This document shows positions 30,287 to 58,768 of a DNA stretch of 64,000 nucleotides, piece after piece. A program made the translations under genes and the position numbers. Positions within the stretch are counted from its first letter, which is position 1. Each line of letters starts with the position of its first letter. The DNA comes from Gemmatimonas sp. (lineage in GTDB: Bacteria; Gemmatimonadota; Gemmatimonadetes; Gemmatimonadales; Gemmatimonadaceae), in contig OZ257156.1 of assembly GCA_965279375.1 (NCBI GenBank), positions 384,001 through 448,000 on the forward strand. Reading direction: 5' to 3'. A model generated the notes under the pieces. The model was not told where the DNA came from. It did no database searches and saw only the letters and a program-made list of their open reading frames with translations.

Positions 30287-31006
30287 ATGCCCTTCGCAGC
30301 ACTCGCGCAATGGACTGAACCGCGCTCGCTCCTCGTGGTCGAGGACGACGATGCGCTCCGGCAAACGCTCGTGGAGTCGCTTACCGCGATCTGTCCGCGC
30401 GTACGCTCGGCCGCCACGCTGGCCGAGGCGATGCGTGAGTGCGCCGAAGAACAGCCCGACCTCGTGCTACTCGACCTCGGCCTGCCCGACGGCGACGGCT
30501 CCGAGCTGCTGACTCGACTCCGCGCGATCACCACGGTCCCCATGATCGTGCTGTCGGTGCGCGAGAACGACGAAGACAAAGTGCAGATGCTCGACGCCGG
30601 GGCTGACGACTTTCTGACGAAGCCCTGCAGCTCGGCCGAATTGCTGGCCCGGGTGCGCGGCCAGCTCCGGCGGTCGGCGGCGTCGATGGCGGCCCGCTCC
30701 GTCGCGCACATGGTCTGCGAAGACGTCGAGATCGACCTGATCAACCAGCGCGTTTCCCGCGCGGGCGTCCCGCAGCGCCTCACCCCCACCGAGTGGGCAC
30801 TCCTGCGCACGCTGGTACTGCACGCTGGCCGTCCACTCACACCGCGCCAGCTCTGGGATCTGGTGTGGGATCGCGAGTTTGGCGACTACGCCGTGCATGT
30901 TCGCGTGCACATGACGCATCTGCGCCGAAAGATCGAGCCCAATTCGGCCTCACCTCGGCTGATCATCACCGAACCGGGCGTGGGCTACCGCTTCGTCATG
31001 CCGTGA
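30287..31006 (+). CDS. OmpR-family response regulator, KdpE-like
   Basis: LLVVEDD, LLDLGLPDGDG, LDAGADDFLTKP, LTPTEW.LL, LRRKIE, ITEPGVGYRF. Confidence 0.92.
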   Translation: MPFAALAQWTEPRSLLVVEDDDALRQTLVESLTAICPRVRSAATLAEAMRECAEEQPDLVLLDLGLPDGDGSELLTRLRAITTVPMIVLSVRENDEDKVQMLDAGADDFLTKPCSSAELLARVRGQLRRSAASMAARSVAHMVCEDVEIDLINQRVSRAGVPQRLTPTEWALLRTLVLHAGRPLTPRQLWDLVWDREFGDYAVHVRVHMTHLRRKIEPNSASPRLIITEPGVGYRFVMP

Positions 31007-42147: not shown

Positions 42148-44898
42148 CTACGGTACCAGCGGCGTCCCGCGACTCGGCGTCGGCATGTTGTGCGGACGGT
42201 GCAGCGGCTCGCCCGTGGCCACGAGACGCGCGAACGCCGGGCCATTGAGCGGCTTGGACATGAGATAGCCCTGCCCCATCGTACAGCCAAGTGACTGCAG
42301 TTCGGCGAGTTGCGCCTCACCCTCAATGCCTTCGGCAACCGTGGCCAGTCCGAGCGTTTCGCCGAGCGAGAGAATCGCGCGCGTGAGGGCGTCATCGCTG
42401 GCGGAGCCGCCGAGCTGCTTGATGAAGCTGCGGTCGATCTTGAGCACGTCAATCGGGAAGCGCTGCAGATACGACAGCGACGAGTAGCCCGTGCCGAAAT
42501 CGTCCAGCGCCAGCGTGACGCCGAGCTCCTTGAGCGCCTTCATTGCCGCGATGACGGTGTCGGCGTTGTGCATCATCACCGACTCGGTCATCTCGATCGT
42601 GAGCTGCGACGGATCGAAGCCGGTCTGTTCGAGCGCTTCGCGCACGTCGTCCACCACGTTCGGTTCCTGCAGGTGGCGTCCGGAGATGTTGACGGCCACG
42701 TGCAGCGTCGGCTCATCGTAGCCTGGCGTGCGCCACGACTTGGCGTCTCGGCAGGCGGTGCGCAGCACGCGACGAGTGATCTCGCTGATGAGCCCCGCTT
42801 CTTCCGCGATCGGTACGAAGACGACGGGCGAGATGAGTCCTCGTACCGGGTGATGCCAGCGGAGCAGCGCTTCGGCGCCAAGGATCTCGCCCGACTGCAA
42901 GTCCACCAGCGGCTGATAGTGCACCTGCAGTTCGTCGGTGCCGATGGCACGCCGCAGATCCGTCTCCAGCTCTGCGCGATCGGCAACTTTCTCGCGCATC
43001 GCTGTTTCGAAGCGCACGACGCGACCCCGCCCTTCGGCCTTGGCCACGTACATCGCGGCGTCGGCGTCGCGCACCAGTTCTTCTAGCGTGACACCGGGAA
43101 GCGCCTCGGACAGGCCAATGCTCGCGCCCACGAACACATCGCGCCCTTCGATGCTGAAAGGACGGGTAAGCTGCGACAACAAGCGATCGGCCGTCGCCAT
43201 GCACGAGGACACGTCGGAATCCTCGAGCAAGACGGCAAACTCGTCGCCACCCAGTCGTGCCACGGTGTCCGCCGCGCGCACCTCGACCTCGATGCGTCGC
43301 GCTGCCTGACGCAGCAACTCGTCGCCCGCCGCGTGGCCCAACGTGTCGTTGATGGCCTTGAAGTGATCGAGGTCGATGAAGATGACGCCGATCTCCACCT
43401 GCACGCGCTCGCGTCGCGCGAGGGCGTGCGTGACACGGTCGGAGAAGAGCACGCGATTGGCGAGGCCCGTGAGAGGATCGTGGAACGCCTGCCAGGCGAT
43501 CTTCCCTTCCAGCTCGCGCCGCTCGGTCACATCGCGTGCATTGAGCACGAGCCCTTCGATGGTCTCGCGTTCGAGCCGGTTGGTGCCGACCACCTCGAGC
43601 CAGCGCCACTCGCCTCCGTGCGTCGCCTGCGGCGTGGCGGCCCGCAGCACGATGGTCTCTTGCGCCTTCGGATTGCCAGCCAGCTTGTCGAGCATGAGCC
43701 GCGCTGCATCCACGTCGTTCGGGTGCACCAGTGTGACGATGTCACGTCCCAGCAGATCCGAGGCCGCGAACCCGGTGAGATGCTCCACCGAAGGACTCAC
43801 GTAACGCGTGGTGCCATCGACGTCCACGATGAAGATCAGATCGGACGCATGCTTCACGAGCGCCGCGAGGCGATTCTCCGCGATACGACTCTCAGCCAGA
43901 CGATCGAGGCGTCCGTTCTCGCCGATCACCACGGCCTGACGCACCAGCACGATGCCAAGGAGCAGCAGGAGCCCAACGACGACGCCACGCACAGGCACGA
44001 GGTCGCCCATCTGCACCAGCACGAGCATGAGGGCGCCGACAATGCCAACGCTGACGTACGGCAGCCATCCCGTACGACGCGCCGCGCGGAGCTGCACGTC
44101 TTCGTCGGGCGTGAGCGCACCGGCCCGCATGGCAGCGAAGGTGACGAGTCCGTACCAGCCGAACCACGCGACGTCGGTGATGACCGAGACGACCATCGAA
44201 TCGCCGATGACGGTGCGCGCGTAGATCAGGTCGGCGAACGTCTTGAGCGCGAACGCGAAGAAGAGCAGGCTGATCGCGTTGATCTGCTCGCGCTTGGTCT
44301 GCCGCGAGAGCAGCACGAGGCTTGCGCTCAACAGCATGACATCGGCCAAGGGATAGCCGAGGTTGACCGCAGCGGTGAGCAGAGGCAGGAGGCCGGGTTG
44401 CGCCGGGTCTACTGGCCAGAGCCAGTACATGACCGTGCCGGCGGTCACCGCCGCGATGACGGCATCCAGTTGGACACGCACGCGTTCGGCGCGCGTGGGG
44501 CCAAGTCCGGGGAAGGAACCGAGGCTCCAGAGCGCCAGCGGGAAGAACGACGTGTACAGCAGATCGGCGACGCTGAGCGGCGGGCGACTGCCGTTGACGA
44601 TCGCCATCATCGACCAGAGCGCGTCGGCCGACCAGTAGGTGCCAATGGTGATCAGGAGACGTCGCCACGCCTTCCGACTGTGCGGGTCCACCGATTCGGA
44701 GCGCGACGCGCGATGGAGCGCGATCAACGTCGGCGCCCCGATCACGAGGTAGGTCAGATTGACAATCAGCTCGCGCGACGCGGGCCCCGGGATACCGAGG
44801 AGCCCACTGATTGCCAGCACAAGCGCCGCCGCGCATTGAAGCAGGGCGAACGTCGGGGCAATTCGGGGGGCGCGCGTGGGCAACAGGCCGTTCTCCAA
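42148..44898 (-). CDS. Membrane-bound PAS-GGDEF-EAL diguanylate cyclase / phosphodiesterase
   Basis: Multi-TM N-terminus, PAS, HDPLTGLANR, RLGGDEF, EALLRW, DDFGTGYSS, KIDRSF, QGY. Confidence 0.95.
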   Translation of the reverse strand: MENGLLPTRAPRIAPTFALLQCAAALVLAISGLLGIPGPASRELIVNLTYLVIGAPTLIALHRASRSESVDPHSRKAWRRLLITIGTYWSADALWSMMAIVNGSRPPLSVADLLYTSFFPLALWSLGSFPGLGPTRAERVRVQLDAVIAAVTAGTVMYWLWPVDPAQPGLLPLLTAAVNLGYPLADVMLLSASLVLLSRQTKREQINAISLLFFAFALKTFADLIYARTVIGDSMVVSVITDVAWFGWYGLVTFAAMRAGALTPDEDVQLRAARRTGWLPYVSVGIVGALMLVLVQMGDLVPVRGVVVGLLLLLGIVLVRQAVVIGENGRLDRLAESRIAENRLAALVKHASDLIFIVDVDGTTRYVSPSVEHLTGFAASDLLGRDIVTLVHPNDVDAARLMLDKLAGNPKAQETIVLRAATPQATHGGEWRWLEVVGTNRLERETIEGLVLNARDVTERRELEGKIAWQAFHDPLTGLANRVLFSDRVTHALARRERVQVEIGVIFIDLDHFKAINDTLGHAAGDELLRQAARRIEVEVRAADTVARLGGDEFAVLLEDSDVSSCMATADRLLSQLTRPFSIEGRDVFVGASIGLSEALPGVTLEELVRDADAAMYVAKAEGRGRVVRFETAMREKVADRAELETDLRRAIGTDELQVHYQPLVDLQSGEILGAEALLRWHHPVRGLISPVVFVPIAEEAGLISEITRRVLRTACRDAKSWRTPGYDEPTLHVAVNISGRHLQEPNVVDDVREALEQTGFDPSQLTIEMTESVMMHNADTVIAAMKALKELGVTLALDDFGTGYSSLSYLQRFPIDVLKIDRSFIKQLGGSASDDALTRAILSLGETLGLATVAEGIEGEAQLAELQSLGCTMGQGYLMSKPLNGPAFARLVATGEPLHRPHNMPTPSRGTPLVP

Positions 44899-47224: not shown

Positions 47225-47314
47225 GTCGGAAAGCTGTGCGAACGGCTGCGTCAGCGGGAGAGTGTGTGGCACTTACGGGGCGCGGCGCGACGCCGATGGG
47301 AGTATCTTGGGCAC

Positions 47315-48106
47315 ATGTCCTACCACTTCATAGCTGTAGACGTCAGTGAGGGTGTCCTGACGTTGACGCTCAACCGACCGGACGTGCTGAACAGCTTCAC
47401 TCGGGCCATGGCGCTGGAGGTTCAGCAAGCGCTACAGCAGGCCGCCGACGACGCGTCGATCCGCGCGGTACTGCTGACAGGAGCCGGGCGAGGATTTTGC
47501 GCGGGACAGGATCTGGCTGAGGCGCTTCCCTCCGGGGACGGACCGATGCCGAACATCGGTGAATTTGTGCGCACGAACTACAACCCGATCATTCGCGCCA
47601 TCCGTGCGTTGGAGAAGCCGGTGATCTGCGCGGTGAACGGTGTCGCCGCCGGTGCTGGCGCGAACCTCGCCTTCGCCTGTGATCTGACGATCGCCGCCGA
47701 AGAAGCGTCATTCGTCGAGAGCTTTGCCAAGCTTGGCCTGATCCCCGACACCAGCGGAACGTTCTTCGTGCCGCGCCTGGTGGGCATGCAGCGCGCGACC
47801 GGGATGTTCTTCCTCGCCGAGAAGATGTCGGCCACGAAGGCGAAGGAGTGGGGGCTGATCTGGGATGTGGTGCCGCTAGCGGCACTCGCCGAAACCACGC
47901 GCGATCTGGCGCGCGCGCTCGCCACACAGGCGACCCGCGGCTTCGGTCTGACCAAGCGCGCGCTCAACGCGTCGTTCACCAATTCGCTCGATGAGCAGCT
48001 CGAGGTGGAAGCCGTCGCGATGGACGAGGCGGGGCGCACCGCCGACTACGAGGAAGGCGTGCGGGCGTTTCTCGCGAAGCGGAAGCCGGTGTATCGCGGC
48101 GCATGA
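47315..48106 (+). CDS. paaG: 2-(1,2-epoxy-1,2-dihydrophenyl)acetyl-CoA isomerase (crotonase fold)
   Basis: LTLNRPD.LNSF, GRGFCAGQDL, YNPII, VNGVAAGAGANLA, GLIPDT; paa gene context. Confidence 0.88.
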   Translation: MSYHFIAVDVSEGVLTLTLNRPDVLNSFTRAMALEVQQALQQAADDASIRAVLLTGAGRGFCAGQDLAEALPSGDGPMPNIGEFVRTNYNPIIRAIRALEKPVICAVNGVAAGAGANLAFACDLTIAAEEASFVESFAKLGLIPDTSGTFFVPRLVGMQRATGMFFLAEKMSATKAKEWGLIWDVVPLAALAETTRDLARALATQATRGFGLTKRALNASFTNSLDEQLEVEAVAMDEAGRTADYEEGVRAFLAKRKPVYRGA

Positions 48107-49299
48107 CGGACGCGATTTCGATGACTCGAACGACGGTGGGCGTGGTCGGTGCCGGCGCGATGGGTGCCGGCATCGCGCAGGTGGCCGCGCTGCATGGACA
48201 CCGCGTGTTGCTGGCGGACGCGCAGCTCACCGCCATCACCCGCGCGCGCGACGTGCACGCCAAGGCGCTTGCGCGCGACGTCGAGAAGGGGAAGCGAAGC
48301 CGAGTCGACGCCGACGCCGTGCTCGACCGGATCAGCTACATCGGCGGTGTGGACGTGGACGACCTTGCGCCGTTCGACGCGTGCGACGTCGTGATCGAAG
48401 CGATCGTCGAGGAGCTGTCCGCCAAGCGCGGGCTCTTCCAGACGCTCGAACGCGTGGTGCGCGACGACACCATCCTCGCGACCAACACCTCGTCGCTGTC
48501 CATCGCGGCCATCGGTGGCGCATGCAAGCACGACGAGCGCGTGGTGGGGATTCACTTCTTCAATCCGGCGCCTGTGATGCCGCTGGTTGAAATCATCCCG
48601 TCCATCACGACCGCTTCCGAGATCACGCTGTCGGCGCGTGCGTTGGTGGATACGTGGGGCAAGACAACCGTCGTCGCGAGCGACACGCCGGGCTTCATCG
48701 TCAATCGCGTGGCGCGGCCGTTCTACGGCGAGGCGATGCAACTCGCCAGCGAAGGCGTGGCCGACATCGCCACCATCGACTGGGCGATGCGTGAGATCGG
48801 TGGCTTTCGCATGGGCCCGTTCGAGCTCACGGACTTCATCGGCCATGATGTGAACTTCGCGGTCACGCGCTCCGTGTTCGACGCCACGTTCCACGACCCG
48901 CGCTATCGTCCGTCCATCTCTCAACAGCGTCTCGTGGAAGCGGGGCTCTTGGGACGCAAGTCGGGACGCGGCTACTACGACTACCGCGAGGGCGCGACCA
49001 AACCCGAGCCGACGCGCGACGAAACACTCGGCCGTCAGATCGTGGATCGCATCCTTGCACTGTTGATCAACGAAGCGGTGGAAGCGGTCCATCTGCGTAT
49101 CGCGTCGGCCGCAGACGTGGAGCTCGCGATGACCACGGGCGTCAACTACCCGAAAGGGCTGTTGGCGTGGGGTGACGAGATCGGCGCGAGCACGGTGCTG
49201 GCGCGACTCGATGCGCTGCACGCCGAGTATGGCGACGATCGGTATCGCGCGAGTGTGCGGCTGCGGCGGATCGTGCGCGATGGCGGGCGGTTGCTGTGA
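48103..49299 (+). CDS. paaH: 3-hydroxyacyl(adipyl)-CoA dehydrogenase
   Basis: GAGAMGAGIA, EAIVE, TNTSSLS, HFFNPAP, PGFIVNR, second C-terminal domain GVNYPKG. Confidence 0.88.
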   Translation: MTDAISMTRTTVGVVGAGAMGAGIAQVAALHGHRVLLADAQLTAITRARDVHAKALARDVEKGKRSRVDADAVLDRISYIGGVDVDDLAPFDACDVVIEAIVEELSAKRGLFQTLERVVRDDTILATNTSSLSIAAIGGACKHDERVVGIHFFNPAPVMPLVEIIPSITTASEITLSARALVDTWGKTTVVASDTPGFIVNRVARPFYGEAMQLASEGVADIATIDWAMREIGGFRMGPFELTDFIGHDVNFAVTRSVFDATFHDPRYRPSISQQRLVEAGLLGRKSGRGYYDYREGATKPEPTRDETLGRQIVDRILALLINEAVEAVHLRIASAADVELAMTTGVNYPKGLLAWGDEIGASTVLARLDALHAEYGDDRYRASVRLRRIVRDGGRLL

Positions 49300-49733
49300 G
49301 TGATGATACGACGCGCGCGCGGGCGGTTGTCGATTCGCTCGTTGTCACCGACGCGTTCTCGCGTTGGCTGGGCATATCGGTGCTCGAAGCCGATGTGGGC
49401 CATGCGGTGTGCCGCATGACCGTGCGCGGCGAGATGGTCAACGGCTTCGGCACCTCACACGGCGGCATCGTCTTTTCGTTGGCGGATAGCGCCTTCGCGT
49501 TTGCCACCAATGCCGGCGGCTTTCTCAGTGTCGCCGTTGACTGCTCCGTCAGTTTTCCGGTCGCGGTGCGCCCCGGAGATGTGCTGACTGCCACCGCGGT
49601 CGAAGAGAGCACCACCAACCGACTCGCCTTCTGCGCCGTGACCGTCCGCAATCAGCAGGATGCCATTGTCGCGCACTTTCGTGGCACGGTGTATCGCACC
49701 ACCCGCCCGCATCAACTTCCCACGCCCGACTGA
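49296..49733 (+). CDS. paaI: Hotdog-fold phenylacetyl-CoA thioesterase
   Basis: DAFSRWLGI, NGFGTSHGGIVFSLADSAFAFATN, FRGTVYR. Confidence 0.9.
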   Translation: MSDDTTRARAVVDSLVVTDAFSRWLGISVLEADVGHAVCRMTVRGEMVNGFGTSHGGIVFSLADSAFAFATNAGGFLSVAVDCSVSFPVAVRPGDVLTATAVEESTTNRLAFCAVTVRNQQDAIVAHFRGTVYRTTRPHQLPTPD

Positions 49734-49742
49734 GCGCGCTGC

Positions 49743-50978
49743 ATGTCCGACGACATCTCGCATAACCTCGCCCACGCGTACATCGTCGACGGTGTGCGCA
49801 CGCCCATTGGCAACATCGGCGGCACGCTGAGCCCAGTCCGCGCGGACGATCTCGGCGCGCACGCCATTCGCACGCTGCTCGCGCGACATGCCGGCATCGA
49901 TACGTCGCGCATCGCCGATGTCATCATGGGATGCGCCAATCAGGCCGGTGAAGACAATCGCAACGTGGCGCGCATGTCGGCGCTGTTGGCCGGGCTACCG
50001 GTCTCGGTGCCGGGCGAAACGGTGAATCGGCTGTGCGCCTCCGGCCTGAGTGCCGTCGCGAGTGCGGCGCGCGCCATCAAGGTGGGCGAGGGCGACCTGT
50101 ACGTCGCCGGCGGCGTGGAGAGCATGACCCGCGCACCGTTCGTCATGTCCAAGGGGACGAGCGCATTCGCGCGCGATGTGCAGCTCTTCGACACGAGTTT
50201 GGGCTGGCGCTTCGTTAACCCCAAAATGCAGGCGCTCCACGGCACCGACTCCATGGGAGAGACGGCCGAGAATGTCGCCGCGCAGTTCGGCATCTCGCGA
50301 GCGGATCAGGATGCGTTCGCGGTGCGCTCGCAACAGAAGGCCACCGCTGCGCGCGAGGCCGGAGTCTTTGCCGACGAGATCGTGCCGGTGGAGATCCCGC
50401 AGCGAAAGGGTGATCCCGTTCATGTGTCGCAGGACGAGTTCATTCGCCCTGAGACGACGATGGAGATTCTGGGCAAGCTGCGCCCCGCGTTTCGCACCGA
50501 TGGGCAGGGGAGCGTGACGGCGGGCAACGCGAGTGGCCTGAATGACGGCGCCGCCGCGCTCTTGCTCGCCTCTGCTCGCGCCGTCCAGGAGTTCTCGCTC
50601 ACACCGATCGCGCGCGTGGTGTCGAGTGCCGCGGCCGGCGTGGAACCGCGCATCATGGGGATGGGCCCGGTGCCGTCGAGCCGACGCGCGCTGGAGCTCG
50701 CCAGACTCACGCTCGACCAGATGGACGTAATCGAGCTCAACGAAGCGTTCGCGGCACAAGCGCTTGCGTGCCTGCGCGAGTTCGGCCTCGCCGACGACGA
50801 CCCGCGCGTGAACCCCAACGGAGGCGCCATCGCGCTCGGACACCCGCTCGGCATGAGCGGCGCACGGCTGGCACTTACGGCCGCACGTGAGCTGCAGCGC
50901 CGCGGCGGACGCTATGCGCTGTGCACGATGTGCATCGGTGTGGGTCAGGGATTCGCGATGATCATCGAACGGGTGTGA
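49743..50978 (+). CDS. paaJ: 3-oxoadipyl-CoA / 3-oxo-5,6-dehydrosuberyl-CoA thiolase (PaaJ/PcaF)
   Basis: [44 protein letters not shown]. Confidence 0.92.
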
Positions 50979-50988
50979 GGCTCGACGC

Positions 50989-51633
50989 ATGATCTACGCC
51001 TTCGATGGATTCATTCCGGTGGTGCACGAGAGCGCATTCGTGCATCCGCAGGCCGCCGTCACGGGCAACGTGATCATCGGGCGCGATGTGTACATCGGCC
51101 CAGGTGCCGCTATTCGCGGCGACTGGGGCGGCATCGTGATCGAGGATGGATGCAACGTGCAGGAGAACTGCACGATTCACATGTTCCCCGGCGTGACCGT
51201 CGTGCTGGAAGCGGGCGCGCACATCGGGCACGGTGCGATCGTGCACGGCGCGCGCATCGGCGCCAACGCGCTCGTAGGCATGAATGCGGTCATCATGGAC
51301 AACGCGACGATCGGCGCGGGATGTGTGGTGGGCGCGCTCTGCTTCGTGCCCGCCGACATGCAGGTGCCACCGCGCAAGGTGGTGGTGGGCAATCCCGCCA
51401 AGATCGTGAAGGACGTGAGCGATGAGATGCTGGCGTGGAAAAGTGAAGGAACCGCGCTCTATCAGCGCCTCCCGGACGCGATGCGCGCATCGTACGCGCC
51501 CGTCGACCCGCTGCGCGAAGTACCCGCAGACCGACCAACGCAATGGGCGCTGCTCAAGACGTGGAACGACACGAAACCGACGACGACGTCAGCACCGAAT
51601 ACATCTCCAAATACATCGGAACCGACATCATGA
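50989..51633 (+). CDS. paaY: PaaY-like hexapeptide-repeat (gamma-carbonic-anhydrase fold) protein
   Basis: PVVHESAFVHP, IRGDWG, NVQENCTIH, IGHGAIVHG, WKSEGTALYQ.L. Confidence 0.88.
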   Translation: MIYAFDGFIPVVHESAFVHPQAAVTGNVIIGRDVYIGPGAAIRGDWGGIVIEDGCNVQENCTIHMFPGVTVVLEAGAHIGHGAIVHGARIGANALVGMNAVIMDNATIGAGCVVGALCFVPADMQVPPRKVVVGNPAKIVKDVSDEMLAWKSEGTALYQRLPDAMRASYAPVDPLREVPADRPTQWALLKTWNDTKPTTTSAPNTSPNTSEPTS

Positions 51634-53678
51634 CGCTGCTCAACTACGCGATGGGCGAGTGGGTGGAAGGCACGGGCAAGAAGGCTGATCTCATTCACGC
51701 CGTCACCGGCGAGAAGATCGGCGAGGCGTCGAGCGGTGGTCTCGATTTCCAGGCGATGACGCACTACGCGCGCAATGTCGGCGGTCCGGCGCTGCGCGCG
51801 CTGACGTTTCATCAGCGTGCGGCGATGCTCAAGGCGATGGCCAAGCATCTCATGGAGCGCAAGGAAGCGTTCTACGCGCTCTCCGCGATGACCGGCGCGA
51901 CGCGCAGCGACTCGTGGGTGGATATCGACGGCGGCATCGGAACCTTCTTCGCGTACTCGAGCCGTGGGCGGCGTGAGTTTCCCAACGAAACGTTTCATGT
52001 GGAAGGTCCAGCCGAGTCGCTCTCCAAGGGCGGCACGTTCGCTGGCCGCCACATCTGCGTACCGTTGGAAGGCGTCGCGATTCACATCAACGCATTCAAC
52101 TTCCCCTGCTGGGGAATGCTCGAGAAGTTGGCCCCTGCCCTGCTTGCCGGCGTGCCGTGCATCGTGAAGCCGGCCACCGTCACGAGCTATCTGACCGAAG
52201 GCATGTTTCGCGAAATGGTTGCGGCCAACATTCTGCCGCCCGGTGCGATTCAGCTCATCTGCGGCAGCGCGGGTGACTTGCTCGATCATGTGACCGAGCA
52301 GGATGTCGTCGCCTTCACCGGCTCTGCGGCCACCGGCCAGATGCTCAAGGAGGGCAAGGCGATGATGAAGCACTCCGTGCGCTTCAACATGGAGGCCGAT
52401 TCGCTCAACTGCTCCATCCTAGGCCCCGATGCCGTGCCGGGCACCGAGGAGTTCGATCTGTTCGTGAAGGAAGTGGTGCGCGAGATGACGACCAAGGCGG
52501 GGCAGAAGTGCACCGCGATCCGTCGCACGATCGTGCCCAACGGCATGGAAGAAGACGTCATCAAAGCGCTGCGCGCGCGGCTGGAAAAGACCACCATTGG
52601 TGATCCATCCGTGGACGGTGTGCGCATGGGGCCGCTCGCCAGCAAGGGGCAGGTGCGTGACGTGGGCGCTGCGGCCGCGCGCATCGGCGCGAGCGCCGAG
52701 CTGGTGTTTGGTGGCGGTGACTTCAACGTGGTCGGCGCCGATCGTGAGCGCGGCTCGTTCTTCGCGCCGATGCTGATGGCTTGCGCCGATCCGTTCAACC
52801 ACAGCGAGCCGCACGACATCGAAGCGTTCGGCCCGGTCAACACAATCATGCCGTATCGCACGCTCGACGAAGCGATCGAACTCGCCAAGCGGGGTCGCGG
52901 CTCGCTATGCGGCTCGCTCATCACCGCCGATCCGAGCGTGGCACGCAAAGTTGTCATCGGCGTAGCGCCGTATCACGGCCGCCTGATGGTTCTCGACCGC
53001 TCGAGCGCCAAGGAAAGCACGGGACACGGCTCACCGCTCCCCAACCTCGTGCATGGCGGTCCGGGGCGCGCCGGCGGCGGCGAAGAGATGGGCGGCGCGC
53101 GTGGCGTGTTGCACTACATGCAGCGCGCGGCCGTGCAGGGGAGCCCCTCCATGCTCGCCGCCATCACGCGCGAGTGGAGCAAGGGCGCGGCCACCACGAC
53201 CGACGGCATTCATCCGTTCCGCAAGACGTTCGACGAATTGCATGTGGGTGACGCGCACATCACCGGCGAACGACTGATCACGCTGGAAGACGTCGTGAAG
53301 TTCGCGGATCTCAGTGGCGATCACTTCTACGCGCACATGAACGACGACGAGGCGCGCACGAACGGCGTCTTCACCGGTCGCGTGGCACACGGCTACTTCA
53401 TCGTGTCGGCGGCGGCCGGCCTGTTTGTCGATCCGGCGTTAGGCCCCGTGCTCGCCAACTACGGCATGAACAACCTGCGCTTCACCAAGCCGGTGTATCC
53501 GGGCGACACCATCCACGTGCAGCTCACCGTCAAGCAGAAGACGGCCAAGGACACGCCGGAAGGCGGCATCCCGCAGGGCGTCGTGGAGTGGGACGTCGAA
53601 GTGCTCAATCAGGACAACGAGGCGGTCGCCGTCTACTCCATTCTCACACTGGTACGACGGTCAGAGTCATTGTCGTAG
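51630..53678 (+). CDS. paaZ: Bifunctional oxepin-CoA hydrolase / aldehyde dehydrogenase
   Basis: ALDH (INAFNFPCW, EADSLN, GQKCTAIRR, HGGPGRAGGGEE) fused to MaoC (SGDHFYAH, AHGY, LRFTKPV). ATGA overlap with paaY. Confidence 0.95.
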   Translation: MTLLNYAMGEWVEGTGKKADLIHAVTGEKIGEASSGGLDFQAMTHYARNVGGPALRALTFHQRAAMLKAMAKHLMERKEAFYALSAMTGATRSDSWVDIDGGIGTFFAYSSRGRREFPNETFHVEGPAESLSKGGTFAGRHICVPLEGVAIHINAFNFPCWGMLEKLAPALLAGVPCIVKPATVTSYLTEGMFREMVAANILPPGAIQLICGSAGDLLDHVTEQDVVAFTGSAATGQMLKEGKAMMKHSVRFNMEADSLNCSILGPDAVPGTEEFDLFVKEVVREMTTKAGQKCTAIRRTIVPNGMEEDVIKALRARLEKTTIGDPSVDGVRMGPLASKGQVRDVGAAAARIGASAELVFGGGDFNVVGADRERGSFFAPMLMACADPFNHSEPHDIEAFGPVNTIMPYRTLDEAIELAKRGRGSLCGSLITADPSVARKVVIGVAPYHGRLMVLDRSSAKESTGHGSPLPNLVHGGPGRAGGGEEMGGARGVLHYMQRAAVQGSPSMLAAITREWSKGAATTTDGIHPFRKTFDELHVGDAHITGERLITLEDVVKFADLSGDHFYAHMNDDEARTNGVFTGRVAHGYFIVSAAAGLFVDPALGPVLANYGMNNLRFTKPVYPGDTIHVQLTVKQKTAKDTPEGGIPQGVVEWDVEVLNQDNEAVAVYSILTLVRRSESLS

Positions 53679-53718: not shown

Positions 53719-54993
53719 TCAGGCGACGCGAGGAAGCAGGAGCGTGACCGTCGTGCCGCTACCGACGGCGGTTTCGACCTGTACGCCTCCGCCTGATTGC
53801 ACCATGACATCGTAGATCATCGACAGCCCAAGGCCGGTGCCTTTGCCTTCTTCCTTGGTCGTGAAGAACGGCTCGAAGATCTTCGACCGAACCTCATCGC
53901 TGATCCCCGTCCCCTCGTCCCGCACCGCGACTGTCATGTAGACGCCGGGGCCGACAGGCGGGGATGTCGGCGCCGACTCAGGGGCGACGACGACTGCACC
54001 GGTCTCGATCGTGACGGTGCCGTTGCCGCGTCCAGCGCTCGCGGTGGCGTCCCGTGCGTTGACGATGAGATTGAGGATCGCCTGCTGCATCTGATTGACG
54101 TCGACCTGCACGAAGCCTTCCGCGACGCTGGCGCGTACCGTGAGCCGCATCTCGGACGGCAGTGCGCGCTGCAGCAGACGCAACTCCTTGGCCACCAACG
54201 CATCGAGTGTCGTGCGCTGCGTCGTGCCTCGCTCCTTTCGACTGAAAGCGAGGAGGCGGCGCGTCAATTCGGTGGCATGCTCCGTCGCGAGTCCGATCTC
54301 TTCGAGGTGACTCACAACGGCCGCGTCGTCCGCGATCTCCGTGCGCATCAGGTCCACGTTGCCCTGGATGACCGTCAGCAGGTTGTTGAAGTCGTGAGCC
54401 ACACCGCTCGCAAGGCGACCCATCAGCTCCATCTTCTGCACCTGATGCAGATGGACTTCGAGCAATTGCCGTTCGCGCAGACTATCCGCCAGCCGTTCAT
54501 TCGTGAGCGTGAGCTGCTGCGATTGTGAGAGGAGCACTTCATTCGACTCAGCGAGAGCAGCCTCGCGGGCCTGGGCGCGTTCGACCTCTCGAGCGAGCTT
54601 CGCGTCGCGCACCAGCGCACTGACACGCGGAACGAAGAACGGGAGCAGGCTGGCGGTCAGCAGCGAAACAGCGGCGGTCGCCACCATGGTCGCGGTTTCG
54701 ATCGTGCCGCGGCTCGCACCCAAGGGCAGCACACCCATGATGTGCGTTGCCCCGCAGAGGACGATGAATGCGCCGAACAACACGAACACGATCGGGAACG
54801 GCAGTTCGTGGCGGAGGCGTACCACAAGTACGAGCAGCGTGGCCGCGATGGCGAAGTACGACAGCGCAGTCACGATGTCGGCAACGTGAAACGCGGTGCT
54901 GGCCGTCGCGGAAATTCCGGGCGGTGCGGCGTGCGTCGACAGCTGATTGGCAAGCACCTGCATCGCGTACAGCATCGGTCGGAGCCGCCTCAT
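53719..54993 (-). CDS. Sensor histidine kinase with N-terminal ETR1-type ethylene-binding (3-TM) domain
   Basis: [34 protein letters not shown]; His[38 protein letters not shown]. Start 54993, 54975 or 54963. Confidence 0.85.
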
Positions 54994-57007: not shown

Positions 57008-58768
57008 ATGACCCGGACTTCCCGGGAGGCCACGCGTCTCGTATTGAGCGTGCCGAGCTCGCACGTCCTGCTCGCGCTGACCGCGTACGTGGCGGTCGTG
57101 GTCGCAGCATTCGCGCTGCGCGATGCGCCCGCGGCGCGCGGTGTGACGATCAGTCTTGCCTTCGTCGCCTTCACCAGTGCGGCGCTTTACTTCAACGCGC
57201 GTCGTGTTCGCAGCGAAGTGGATGGCCGCGCGGGCTGGCTCCTGATCTCATTCGCTGGCGCCGTCGCCATTCTGTTCGAGCTCACGCTCGCGGCCGAAGC
57301 GGCCTTTCCGAGCGTCATCGCACCATCTCCGGCACTCTGGCTCACGCAGTCGCTGCTGTCCAACCTCGCGATGTCGGTGGGCATTCTGCTGCTGCCCTAC
57401 GGCACCGAGTCGGTGCGTCATCGCACGCGCATGGCGTGCGATGCGTTCGCGTTCTTCGTCGGGGCGTTTCTCGTCTTCTGGGTGGTCGGCGGGCGTCGCG
57501 AAGTGTACGACTCCGCCCAGCCGCTGCTGACGCGCGTGGAAGCGCTGGTGAGCTACAGCTTCAACGCGCTCGAACTGGGGATCGTGATCTACATCGGCTC
57601 GCGTGCGATGCAGCGATTCCGTGGCCCGCTCGGCTGGTTCCTGCTGGCCTTCTCGGCGCTCACCATCGGATCCGCGGTCGTGGCCTTCGCGCGCGTGCGC
57701 GGCGAGCCGAGTGTCGGCAGCGCAGGTGAACTGGTGCAGATGCTTGCGTTCCCGTTCTTCGTGCTGGCGCCGTTGTCGAAACAGCCGCGGCGCATGGCGT
57801 GGCGCGACGAAGCGTCGCTGGCTGGCGATCTGCTCACTTACGGACCGGTGATGCTGGCGATGCTGATCGTACTGCCCGCAAGCATCGCCTCGGGCACCTC
57901 CGACTTCGTGCTGGTTGCCGGCGTACCACTGCTCGCGTTTCTGCTCCTCTTCCGGCAATTCCTCGCCGTGCGCGATGTGCGCGACCTGAGCCGCACACTC
58001 GAGCAGCGCGTGCTGGAGCGAACCGAGGCGCTGCGTCGGAGTGAGCAGGCGCTGGCGCAGGCGAAGCGTTTGGAAGCGGTCGGTCGCGTCGCCGGCGGCG
58101 TGGCCCACGACTTCAACAACGTGCTGCACGCCATCCAGCTCGCCGCGAGCACGATGGAAGACTCCCCGCAGACGGAGCCTTGGCGCACGGAGCTCAACAT
58201 CATTCGCGATGCCACGCGCACCGGTGCGTCGTTGGCGCGCGAAGTGCTCGACTTCTCCAAACCGGAGCTGGCCGCCGACGAGGACGCGAGCGTAGCCGAC
58301 TCGTTGCGCGCACTCGAGTGGATGCGACACCAGCTTGGCCAGCGACACATTCGCTACGACGTCACGCTGCCGTCGGAGTCGGTGCATGTGCGGCTGGCGC
58401 GCACGCGCCTCGAGCAGGTGCTCGCCAACCTGATCACGAATGCACGCGATGCAGTGGCCGACGGTGGCTCGATTCGCGTCACCGCCGAGCGCACCTGGGT
58501 GGACGACGGCTCGGCGGCGGAGGAGCTGGGGATCCCGTCGGGAGCATACGTGCGGCTCACCGTGGCAGACGACGGCGCGGGGATCGCGGAGGAAGTCATG
58601 CCGCAGATCTTCGAGCCGTATTTCACGACCAAGACGGAGAATGCGGGGACCGGGCTCGGCTTGGCGACCTGCTACAACGTGGTGCGTCGCGCGGGGGGGA
58701 CGGTGACCGTGACGTCCACCCCGGGTGGCGGGGCGACCTTTGATGTGCTGTTGCCGACGGTGGTCTAG
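57008..58768 (+). CDS. Multi-TM sensor histidine kinase (HDFNN class), no receiver domain
   Basis: About 9 [46 protein letters not shown]. Confidence 0.9.
   Translation: MTRTSREATRLVLSVPSSHVLLALTAYVAVVVAAFALRDAPAARGVTISLAFVAFTSAALYFNARRVRSEVDGRAGWLLISFAGAVAILFELTLAAEAAFPSVIAPSPALWLTQSLLSNLAMSVGILLLPYGTESVRHRTRMACDAFAFFVGAFLVFWVVGGRREVYDSAQPLLTRVEALVSYSFNALELGIVIYIGSRAMQRFRGPLGWFLLAFSALTIGSAVVAFARVRGEPSVGSAGELVQMLAFPFFVLAPLSKQPRRMAWRDEASLAGDLLTYGPVMLAMLIVLPASIASGTSDFVLVAGVPLLAFLLLFRQFLAVRDVRDLSRTLEQRVLERTEALRRSEQALAQAKRLEAVGRVAGGVAHDFNNVLHAIQLAASTMEDSPQTEPWRTELNIIRDATRTGASLAREVLDFSKPELAADEDASVADSLRALEWMRHQLGQRHIRYDVTLPSESVHVRLARTRLEQVLANLITNARDAVADGGSIRVTAERTWVDDGSAAEELGIPSGAYVRLTVADDGAGIAEEVMPQIFEPYFTTKTENAGTGLGLATCYNVVRRAGGTVTVTSTPGGGATFDVLLPTVV

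What the first reader, a model, noticed from the sequence alone, without database searches (positions are those of the whole stretch)
53719..54993. Histidine kinase with an ETR1-type ethylene-binding domain: candidate bacterial ethylene/alkene receptor
Seen in sequence: the N-terminal 3-TM region reads [78 protein letters not shown]. It joins directly to a coiled coil, HisKA and HATPase, with no GAF or receiver domain. Established (from my recall of the sequence): Arabidopsis ETR1 helix 2 carries the same 12-mer [12 protein letters not shown] with the Cu(I) ligands Cys65/His69, and helix 1 carries Asp25, Tyr32, Ile35 and Pro36. Here Asp (54877-54879), Tyr (54856-54858), Ile, Cys (54754-54756) and His (54742-54744) are kept at matching spacing, while the Pro36 and Lys91 positions appear to be Ala and Met. 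Bacterial receptors of this type have been studied in Synechocystis and Azospirillum; I know of none characterised in a Gemmatimonadota-like organism. Inference: a copper-dependent sensor of plant or algal ethylene, or of a related ligand given the two substitutions, that signals to a response regulator encoded elsewhere.
Basis: partly seen in the sequence, partly recalled or inferred. Interest (0 to 1): 0.85.

Follow-up and report, generated by a model that had tools for sequence, protein, structure and literature searches.

The report
Ethylene-receptor kinase with remodelled ligand pocket
A Gemmatimonas bacterium encodes a sensor kinase with the copper-binding membrane domain of plant ethylene receptors, a domain common in bacteria, but its small lineage has swapped pocket residues that plant receptors need for tight ethylene binding, so it likely still holds copper yet likely binds ethylene only weakly or senses another small ligand.

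Summary
In detail: a 418-aa ETR1_N (PF25487) + HisKA + HATPase kinase, single copy, with no regulator nearby, in a phototrophic Gemmatimonas. An ETR1-type domain alone is ordinary: about 6,700 clusters at 50% identity match it, and this scan has logged 46 such findings in other genomes. The variant is the notable part. The protein belongs to a small clade (30 sequences, Gemmatimonadota wherever named) that keeps Asp25, Tyr32, Ile35, Ile62, Cys65 and His69 in 30 of 30 members under purifying selection. The clade has fixed Pro36→Ala, Lys91→Met/Ser/Leu and Ile28→Thr (29 of 30), and lost the bacterial periplasmic Cys/Trp cap. The window's Lys91→Met is the exact ETR1 lab mutant that keeps copper, retains about 6% ethylene binding and uncouples signalling (PMC10266040). 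Pro36 loss is older and shared with a large untested subfamily, so it is weaker evidence. Best reading: a Cu(I)-cofactor sensor kinase with weak, fast-exchanging binding of ethylene or a similar small ligand (0.45). Rivals: compensated high-affinity receptor (0.22), different input such as copper or a larger ligand (0.2), uncoupled kinase (0.13). No ligand was tested.

The parts
53719..54975 (-). CDS, 418-aa membrane sensor histidine kinase (ETR1_N + coiled coil + HisKA + HATPase_c); upstream in-frame ATG at 54993 is the less likely start
54616..54885 (-). ETR1_N (PF25487) ethylene-binding-type transmembrane domain
   Evidence: 74 bits, E 1.2e-20; only copy in the genome
54814..54909 (-). helix 1 (TM1): Asp25 54877-54879, Ile28→Thr 54868-54870, Tyr32 54856-54858, Ile35 54847-54849, Pro36→Ala 54844-54846 (ETR1 numbering)
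   Evidence: AlphaFold2 helix 12-43; alignment
54736..54795 (-). helix 2 (TM2): Ile62 54763-54765 and the predicted Cu(I) ligands Cys65 54754-54756 and His69 54742-54744
54574..54720 (-). helix 3 (TM3) running on into the coiled coil: Lys91→Met 54685-54687, Thr94 54676-54678, Ser98 54664-54666, Pro110 54628-54630
54910..54936 (-). N-terminal periplasmic segment: His (54931-54933) kept; Pro, Cys and Trp of the bacterial PHGxCxxW motif lost
54436..54621 (-). helical linker (predicted coiled coil) between sensor and HisKA; no GAF or PAS
   Evidence: limits approximate
54226..54423 (-). HisKA domain, H-box GVAHDFNNL with phospho-accepting His at 54394-54396
53728..54102 (-). HATPase_c domain with N, G1, F and G2 boxes present

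Best explanation
It is an orphan membrane histidine kinase with an ETR1-type three-helix sensor that likely holds Cu(I) on Cys65/His69, but whose pocket is remodelled so that it likely binds ethylene, or a similar small copper-binding ligand such as CO, only weakly and with fast exchange. Shown: domain layout, intact copper ligands and kinase motifs, clade-fixed Ile28→Thr, Pro36→Ala and Lys91→Met, purifying selection, no adjacent regulator. Inferred from ETR1: Asp25 polarises His69, Cu(I) sits mid-membrane, ligand binding shifts helix 3 and changes (probably lowers) autophosphorylation. Inferred only: Thr28, one turn from Asp25, takes over part of the polar contact that Lys91 made; phosphate passes in trans to one of the genome's receiver proteins.
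For: Asp25, Tyr32, Ile35, Ile62, Cys65 and His69 are kept in 30 of 30 clade members. Sensor dN/dS is 0.12 against 0.125 for the ATPase domain (7 genes). ETR1 K91M binds copper like wild type, keeps about 6% ethylene binding and is uncoupled; K91A keeps 1% (PMC10266040 section 8). ETR1 P36L binds under 5% (PMC3212723 citing Wang 2006). Ile28 lines the simulated ethylene site and is untested (PMC6586836); it is Thr in 29 of 30 clade members against 12 of 264 other domains. The helix-3 relay residues Thr94, Ser98 and Pro110 are kept in 30, 29 and 30 of 30. Low-affinity but functional receptors exist (D25N). CO and isocyanides also trigger ETR1-type responses (PMC13012798). AlphaFold2 gives three helices at pLDDT 87.
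Against: All binding numbers come from single mutants in the plant backbone; a naturally co-evolved set may restore affinity. Pro36 loss is common: 129 of the 148 nearest outside clusters lack it while mostly keeping Lys91. Non-basic residue 91 also occurs elsewhere (Gln in 18 of 252 bacterial A/B rows). Plant receptors lack the bacterial cap as well and still bind tightly. No ligand, copper or expression data exist for this protein; the neighbourhood gives no hint of the signal.
Confidence: 0.45

Rival explanations
1. A working high-affinity ethylene receptor like AzoEtr1 or SynEtr1, in which the loop insertion and Thr28 compensate for the loss of Pro36 and Lys91.
For: Six of the seven classical residues are kept (Tyr32's place among the seven is recalled, the other six come). 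Pro36 loss travels with a one-residue insertion (44 of 46 non-Pro domains have spacing 41; 103 of 104 Pro domains have 40), which looks like a compensated design. Thr28 co-occurs with Lys91 loss. The sensor is under purifying selection.
Against: Every bacterial receptor described in the papers read (SynEtr1, AzoEtr1, GeiEtr1/2) keeps all seven residues. K91M and K91A leave 6% and 1% binding. The clade's stem is long (0.57 changes per column), and the changes cluster around the pocket.
Confidence: 0.22
2. A repurposed sensor: with the periplasmic cap and the Lys91 bridge gone, the Asp/Cys/His site reports Cu(I) occupancy itself or binds a larger or more polar ligand (thioether, isocyanide, alkyne) arriving from the periplasm.
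For: The residues lost (N-terminal Cys and Trp, His four before Asp25, the W-x-P-x-Y-W loop, Lys91) all lie on the predicted outer face above the copper site, while the core and the cytoplasmic half are invariant. The pocket gains a hydroxyl (Thr28). Met or Leu at 91 was seen only in this clade (24 rows). A Cu(I) Cys/His site used for organosulfur sensing is the model cited for a mouse olfactory receptor (PMC10266040).
Against: No copper, alkene or sulfur genes are conserved nearby; the two P1B copper-type ATPases above cut-off lie elsewhere. Met91 is unlikely to be a copper ligand: sister branches have Ser or Leu, and in the ETR1 model residue 91 lies beyond Asp25, away from the metal. Topology is inferred from ETR1, not measured.
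Confidence: 0.2
3. An uncoupled or largely constitutive kinase whose membrane domain now serves mainly as an anchor or dimer scaffold; an accessory gene on its way out.
For: ETR1 K91M cannot hold on and off states. The gene is patchy (clade members in 10 of 87 genus genomes), moves between loci, and is broken in 2 of those 10 genomes, with a C-terminally disrupted copy in a third (assembly error not excluded).
Against: Cys65, His69 and Asp25 are invariant in 30 of 30 despite synonymous divergence of dS about 1.4; a mere anchor would not keep buried polar metal ligands.
Confidence: 0.13

Closest known systems
AzoEtr1 of Azospirillum brasilense Sp7 (PMC11819568)
   Same: N-terminal three-helix ethylene-binding domain fused to a histidine kinase with no receiver; proven copper-type receptor family in a non-cyanobacterial bacterium.
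   Different: AzoEtr1 has a PAS domain, all seven essential residues and an overlapping single-domain regulator gene. This protein has no PAS, lacks Pro36 and Lys91, has Thr28, and has no regulator within about 23 kb.
Arabidopsis ETR1 and its K91M and P36L mutants (PMC10266040; PMC3212723; PMC12214528)
   Same: Identical helix-2 12-mer (seen in plant orthologues P0059, P0053); Asp25, Tyr32, Ile35, Ile62, Cys65, His69, Thr94, Ser98, Pro110 kept. The natural Met91 copies the K91M lab mutant.
   Different: No GAF or receiver, no N-terminal disulfide cysteines, one-residue insertion after TM1, three-residue shorter TM2-TM3 loop, Ala36 and Thr28; the kinase is of the CckA/NtrB-like type.
SynEtr1 (Slr1212) of Synechocystis and GeiEtr1/2 of Geitlerinema PCC 7105 (PMC6682694)
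   Same: Bacterial members of the same domain family, signalling by histidine phosphorelay.
   Different: They keep all seven residues and one N-terminal cysteine; this clade has lost that cysteine (0 of 30).
Uncharacterised bacterial 'B' subfamily (Ser/Ala36, +1 insertion, Lys/Arg91), defined here
   Same: Shares Pro36 loss and the insertion; B plus this clade form one branch (100/96; 95/92 with trait columns removed).
   Different: B keeps Lys91, Ile28 and the periplasmic cap; this clade has lost or replaced all three.

Membership tests
ETR1_N / ethylene-binding domain family (PF25487) | Profile match above the curated cut-off | tested here: met
   74 bits against 27
ETR1_N / ethylene-binding domain family (PF25487) | Three N-terminal transmembrane helices | tested here: met
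   AlphaFold2 model with three helices, pLDDT 87; three hydropathy peaks
ETR1_N / ethylene-binding domain family (PF25487) | Cu(I) ligands Cys65-x3-His69 plus Asp25 | tested here: met
   Present, and invariant in 30 of 30 clade members; copper binding itself not measured
Functional high-affinity ethylene receptor (ETR1, SynEtr1, AzoEtr1) | All seven residues essential for ethylene binding in ETR1 | tested here: not met
   Six of seven; Pro36 is Ala. Papers read name Asp25, Ile35, Pro36, Ile62, Cys65, His69; Tyr32 as the seventh is recalled
Functional high-affinity ethylene receptor (ETR1, SynEtr1, AzoEtr1) | Basic residue at 91 bridging to Asp25 | tested here: not met
   Met at 91; Met 22, Ser 6, Leu 2 of 30 in the clade; K91M gives about 6% binding
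Functional high-affinity ethylene receptor (ETR1, SynEtr1, AzoEtr1) | Saturable, copper-dependent ethylene binding and a physiological ethylene response | not testable with these tools
   Needs bench work
Active HisKA/HATPase_c sensor histidine kinase | H-box His and N, G1, F, G2 boxes | tested here: met
   All five motif patterns found in P0002; Pfam HisKA and HATPase_c above cut-off
Active HisKA/HATPase_c sensor histidine kinase | Cognate response regulator identified | tested here: inconclusive
   74 receiver matches in the genome, nearest at window 30332-30656; none assigned

The most novel reading that the evidence does not exclude
A Gemmatimonadota lineage has converted the ethylene-receptor domain into a sensor for something else: it kept the Asp/Cys/His Cu(I) core, removed the periplasmic cap and the Asp25-Lys91 switch, and added a Thr in the pocket, so that it reports copper itself or a different copper-binding ligand. 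That would be the first natural ETR1-type domain with a non-ethylene input and a lysine-free coupling route.
Probability: 0.25. Interest if true: 0.72.

Novelty: new variant of a known kind. Interest (0 to 1): 0.4.

Why it matters
As one more bacterial ETR1-type domain it adds little. As a natural experiment it is useful: a selected, intact protein carries the very Lys91→Met change that breaks ETR1 coupling in the lab, plus a polar change at the untested pocket residue Ile28. Testing it, with a B-type relative as the intermediate, would show whether the Asp25-Lys91 bridge is required or replaceable, whether the seven-residue rule used to call bacterial ethylene receptors holds, and whether this copper site can be retuned to other ligands. 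It is a short receptor without GAF or PAS, with a named relative in Gemmatimonas groenlandica (P0012), and no solved structure of the domain was found.

Tried and rejected
Gene neighbourhood as a clue: 20 loci plus the window were compared (output partly cut, three loci re-read). No neighbour is conserved across the clade; the adjacent phenylacetate-type cluster is convergent and was not found beside any relative. A receiver scan found no receiver gene directly next to the short, receiver-less form in the window or in 11 related loci (several are near-duplicates or end close to the gene); in four of them a regulator lies 3-4.5 kb away, belonging to its own kinase-regulator pair in the two that were gene-called. 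Link to phototrophy: 7 of 8 genomes with an intact clade gene have reaction-centre genes against 50 of 79 others (Fisher p 0.25); any ETR1_N domain gives 12 of 13 against 45 of 74 (p 0.03), but kin are not independent and three comparisons were made; rejected. Alkene monooxygenase-type family PF02332: no match in the genome, but the control rang nowhere, so uninformative. Expression: no RNA holder listed. Promoter/terminator scan: none found. PDB: no sequence match, no Foldseek match at E<=0.001, only generic helical bundles by VIA-align (best Z 10.6, ORAI, rmsd 3.2, 108 aligned; below the helical-bundle noise level). Homodimer prediction was not run, so dimerisation of the cysteine-less sensor is untested. 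The first, quick tree did not join clade C to subfamily B and flagged long-branch attraction; two careful trees on a longer region did. Five rows labelled C (P0130, P0142, P0167, P0194, P0205) are misregistered B-type domains and were moved out of the clade count; four rows were skipped there. Longer fused forms: 2 distant hits only. Wang et al. 2006 was not held.

Full report
1. Observation. Pfam assigns ETR1_N (PF25487, residues 37-126, 74 bits, E 1.2e-20), HisKA and HATPase_c, and no GAF, PAS or receiver. It is the only ETR1_N gene in the genome. The H, N, G1, F and G2 boxes are present. The likely start is 54975 (418 aa), as in the closest relatives. AlphaFold2 on a 25-row alignment gives three helices, mean pLDDT 87.4, the third running on into the linker. 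GC3 is 0.79, and GC 0.64 is close to the window's 0.66. The host is a Gemmatimonas: named close relatives are Gemmatimonas sp. and G. groenlandica (75-76% identity over the sensor), and a same-genus genome encodes the latter protein exactly. It has two photosynthetic reaction-centre genes.

2. The domain as such is ordinary. A profile of the clade finds 6,672 clusters at 50% identity with E<=0.001 and 3,215 with E<=1e-10. Papers already state that putative receptors occur in many bacterial phyla, and two bacterial receptors are proven, SynEtr1 and AzoEtr1 (PMC11819568 sections 4, 6 and 12 part 1, read). This scan has 46 earlier findings with these words in at least 44 genomes (AI notes, leads only). 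In Gemmatimonadota the domain is patchy: 10 of 401 phylum genomes over the cut-off, 22 of 401 in the family, 13 of 87 in the genus by protein query.

3. Three groups by residue state (ETR1 numbering, anchored on plant P0059). Among 150 non-redundant domains, a set biased towards relatives of the query: group A has Pro36 and Asp-Cys spacing 40 (103 of 104 Pro rows); non-Pro rows have spacing 41 (44 of 46). Group B has Ser or Ala36, the insertion and mostly Lys/Arg91. It is large: of the 148 nearest outside clusters, 129 lack Pro36, 18 keep it, 1 is a fragment, and 141 have Lys or Arg at 91. Group C, with the window's protein, has 30 members: Ala36 30 of 30; Met 22, Ser 6, Leu 2 at 91; and Asp25, Tyr32, Ile35, Ile62, Cys65, His69 all 30 of 30. 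Ile28 is Thr in 29 of 30 against 12 of 264 others (after moving five misregistered rows). The N-terminal cysteine of the bacterial HGxC motif is absent in 30 of 30 and present in 110 of 114 A and 121 of 138 B rows; the Trp of the TM2-TM3 loop is kept in 1 of 11 against 31 of 31. C is small: only 2 of the 150 listed clusters score in its range (209 and 190 bits, next 106; a third hit is a 69-aa fragment of it). All nine C-type loci in named genomes are Gemmatimonadota; the database proteins are mostly unnamed.

4. History and selection. In a careful tree of 45 domains C is one clade (100/100), and B plus C form one branch (100/96), with C next to the Gemmatimonadaceae B proteins at weak support (93/79). 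With the trait columns removed, B plus C holds at 95/92 (42 rows; bootstrap not fully settled). An earlier quick tree on a shorter region placed C elsewhere with a long-branch warning. The inferred order is: Pro36 loss with the insertion first, then loss of Lys91 and the cap with gain of Thr28, then Met91. Across 7 genes of the Met91 branch, dN/dS is 0.12 for the sensor, 0.12 linker, 0.17 HisKA and 0.125 ATPase; dS is 1.2-1.7 and near saturation, so the values are rough. Against this, the gene is dispensable: 10 of 87 genus genomes carry a C-type gene, 2 of them only as broken copies, and one more has a disrupted copy beside a second one (assembly error not excluded).

5. What the substitutions mean. 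PMC10266040 (passages, sections 5, 8 and 9 part 1 read) tested this exact change: ETR1 K91M binds copper like wild type, keeps about 6% ethylene binding, and neither holds the on nor the off state; K91A keeps 1%, K91R 63%. Its copper data are in a supplement that I did not open. PMC6586836 (passages and section 9) lists Ile35, Pro36 and Ile62 among the essential residues and names Ile28 as lining the simulated ethylene site and untested. P36L binds under 5% (PMC3212723 passage citing Wang 2006; PMC12214528 passage). Wang 2006 itself was not held, so P36A data are inferred from the statement that the seven residues came from alanine scanning. PMC11971883 (passages, section 10 part 1) shows that a 100-fold weaker receptor still signals. 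PMC6682694, PMC9603746 and PMC13012798 were seen as passages. Limits: these are single mutants in a plant protein; Pro36 loss is evidently tolerated in group B; Gln at 91 occurs in 18 other bacterial rows; plants lack the bacterial cap yet bind tightly.

6. Context. The gene stands alone between a convergent Aldedh-MaoC (PaaZ-like; name recalled) gene and an upstream amidohydrolase. The nearest receiver domain is about 23 kb away. Neighbours differ among relatives. One sister branch (Ser91) carries PAS and receiver domains. The kinase core is 33-43% identical to at least 19 other kinases in the genome, so no partner can be assigned among the 74 receiver matches.

7. Mechanism. Shown: layout, residues, clade, selection. 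Inferred from ETR1: a dimer with Cu(I) on Cys65/His69, Asp25 polarising His69, ligand entering from the membrane, helix 3 passing the change to the kinase, and ligand probably lowering autophosphorylation. Inferred here: without Lys91 the site exchanges ligand fast, and Thr28 partly replaces the polar contact to Asp25. I put weak, fast sensing of ethylene or a similar small ligand at 0.45, a compensated high-affinity receptor at 0.22, a different input (copper or a larger ligand) at 0.2, and an uncoupled kinase at 0.13.

8. Novelty. It is a member of the ETR1_N family and works like an ETR1-type sensor, but it fails two sequence tests for a high-affinity ethylene receptor, so I do not file it as one. 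Searches for 'Gemmatimonas' with 'ethylene receptor' gave 0 papers; 'Gemmatimonadota', 'ethylene', 'histidine kinase' gave 4 unrelated listings; a search on bacterial putative receptors gave 7 listings, none on this clade by title. The surveys cited as refs 27 and 32 in PMC11819568 were not read and may list Gemmatimonas proteins. Verdict: new variant of a known kind, interest 0.40.

Noticed in passing
P0064-P0211; L033-L039, L050, L081, L093, L140: A large bacterial subfamily of ETR1_N domains replaces the 'essential' Pro36 by Ser/Ala together with a one-residue insertion while keeping Lys/Arg91 (129 of the 148 nearest clusters lack Pro36). No member is described as tested in the papers read.
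   Followed up: partly
L006 (G391:C15:64507-64794) and L136: ETR1_N domains with swapped polarity at the 25/91 pair: Asn25 with Asp91 in L006, His25 with Glu91 in L136.
   Followed up: no
L044 (G739:C332:10322-10600): Gemmatimonadaceae ETR1_N-like domain with His69→Tyr and Tyr32→Thr, so probably without the copper site.
   Followed up: no
L094, L096, L099, L110, L118, L120, L130, L133, L134, L141, L145, L146: Mostly cyanobacterial ETR1_N domains with Gln at position 91 and otherwise canonical residues.
   Followed up: no
window 57008-58768 (+): A second receiver-less histidine kinase of the same CckA/NtrB-like type, 2 kb away, with a long hydrophobic N-terminus that matches no Pfam sensor.
   Followed up: partly
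window about 47300-53678 (+): Cluster resembling phenylacetate catabolism genes (enoyl-CoA hydratase, hydroxyacyl-CoA dehydrogenase, thioesterase, thiolase, PaaY-like, Aldedh-MaoC fusion), convergent with the kinase; only the last was scanned, the other names are recalled resemblances.
   Followed up: partly
window 42148-44898 (-): Multi-membrane-spanning PAS-GGDEF-EAL protein whose hydrophobic N-terminus has no Pfam match.
   Followed up: no
G000:C1:3117089-3118746: Two photosynthetic reaction-centre genes: the host is a phototrophic Gemmatimonas; 57 of 87 genus genomes have them.
   Followed up: yes
L023 (G424), L024 (G427), L016/L053 (G461), L155: Broken or disrupted copies of the clade's gene: deletions and frame changes, an in-frame stop, a divergent C-terminus.
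   Followed up: partly
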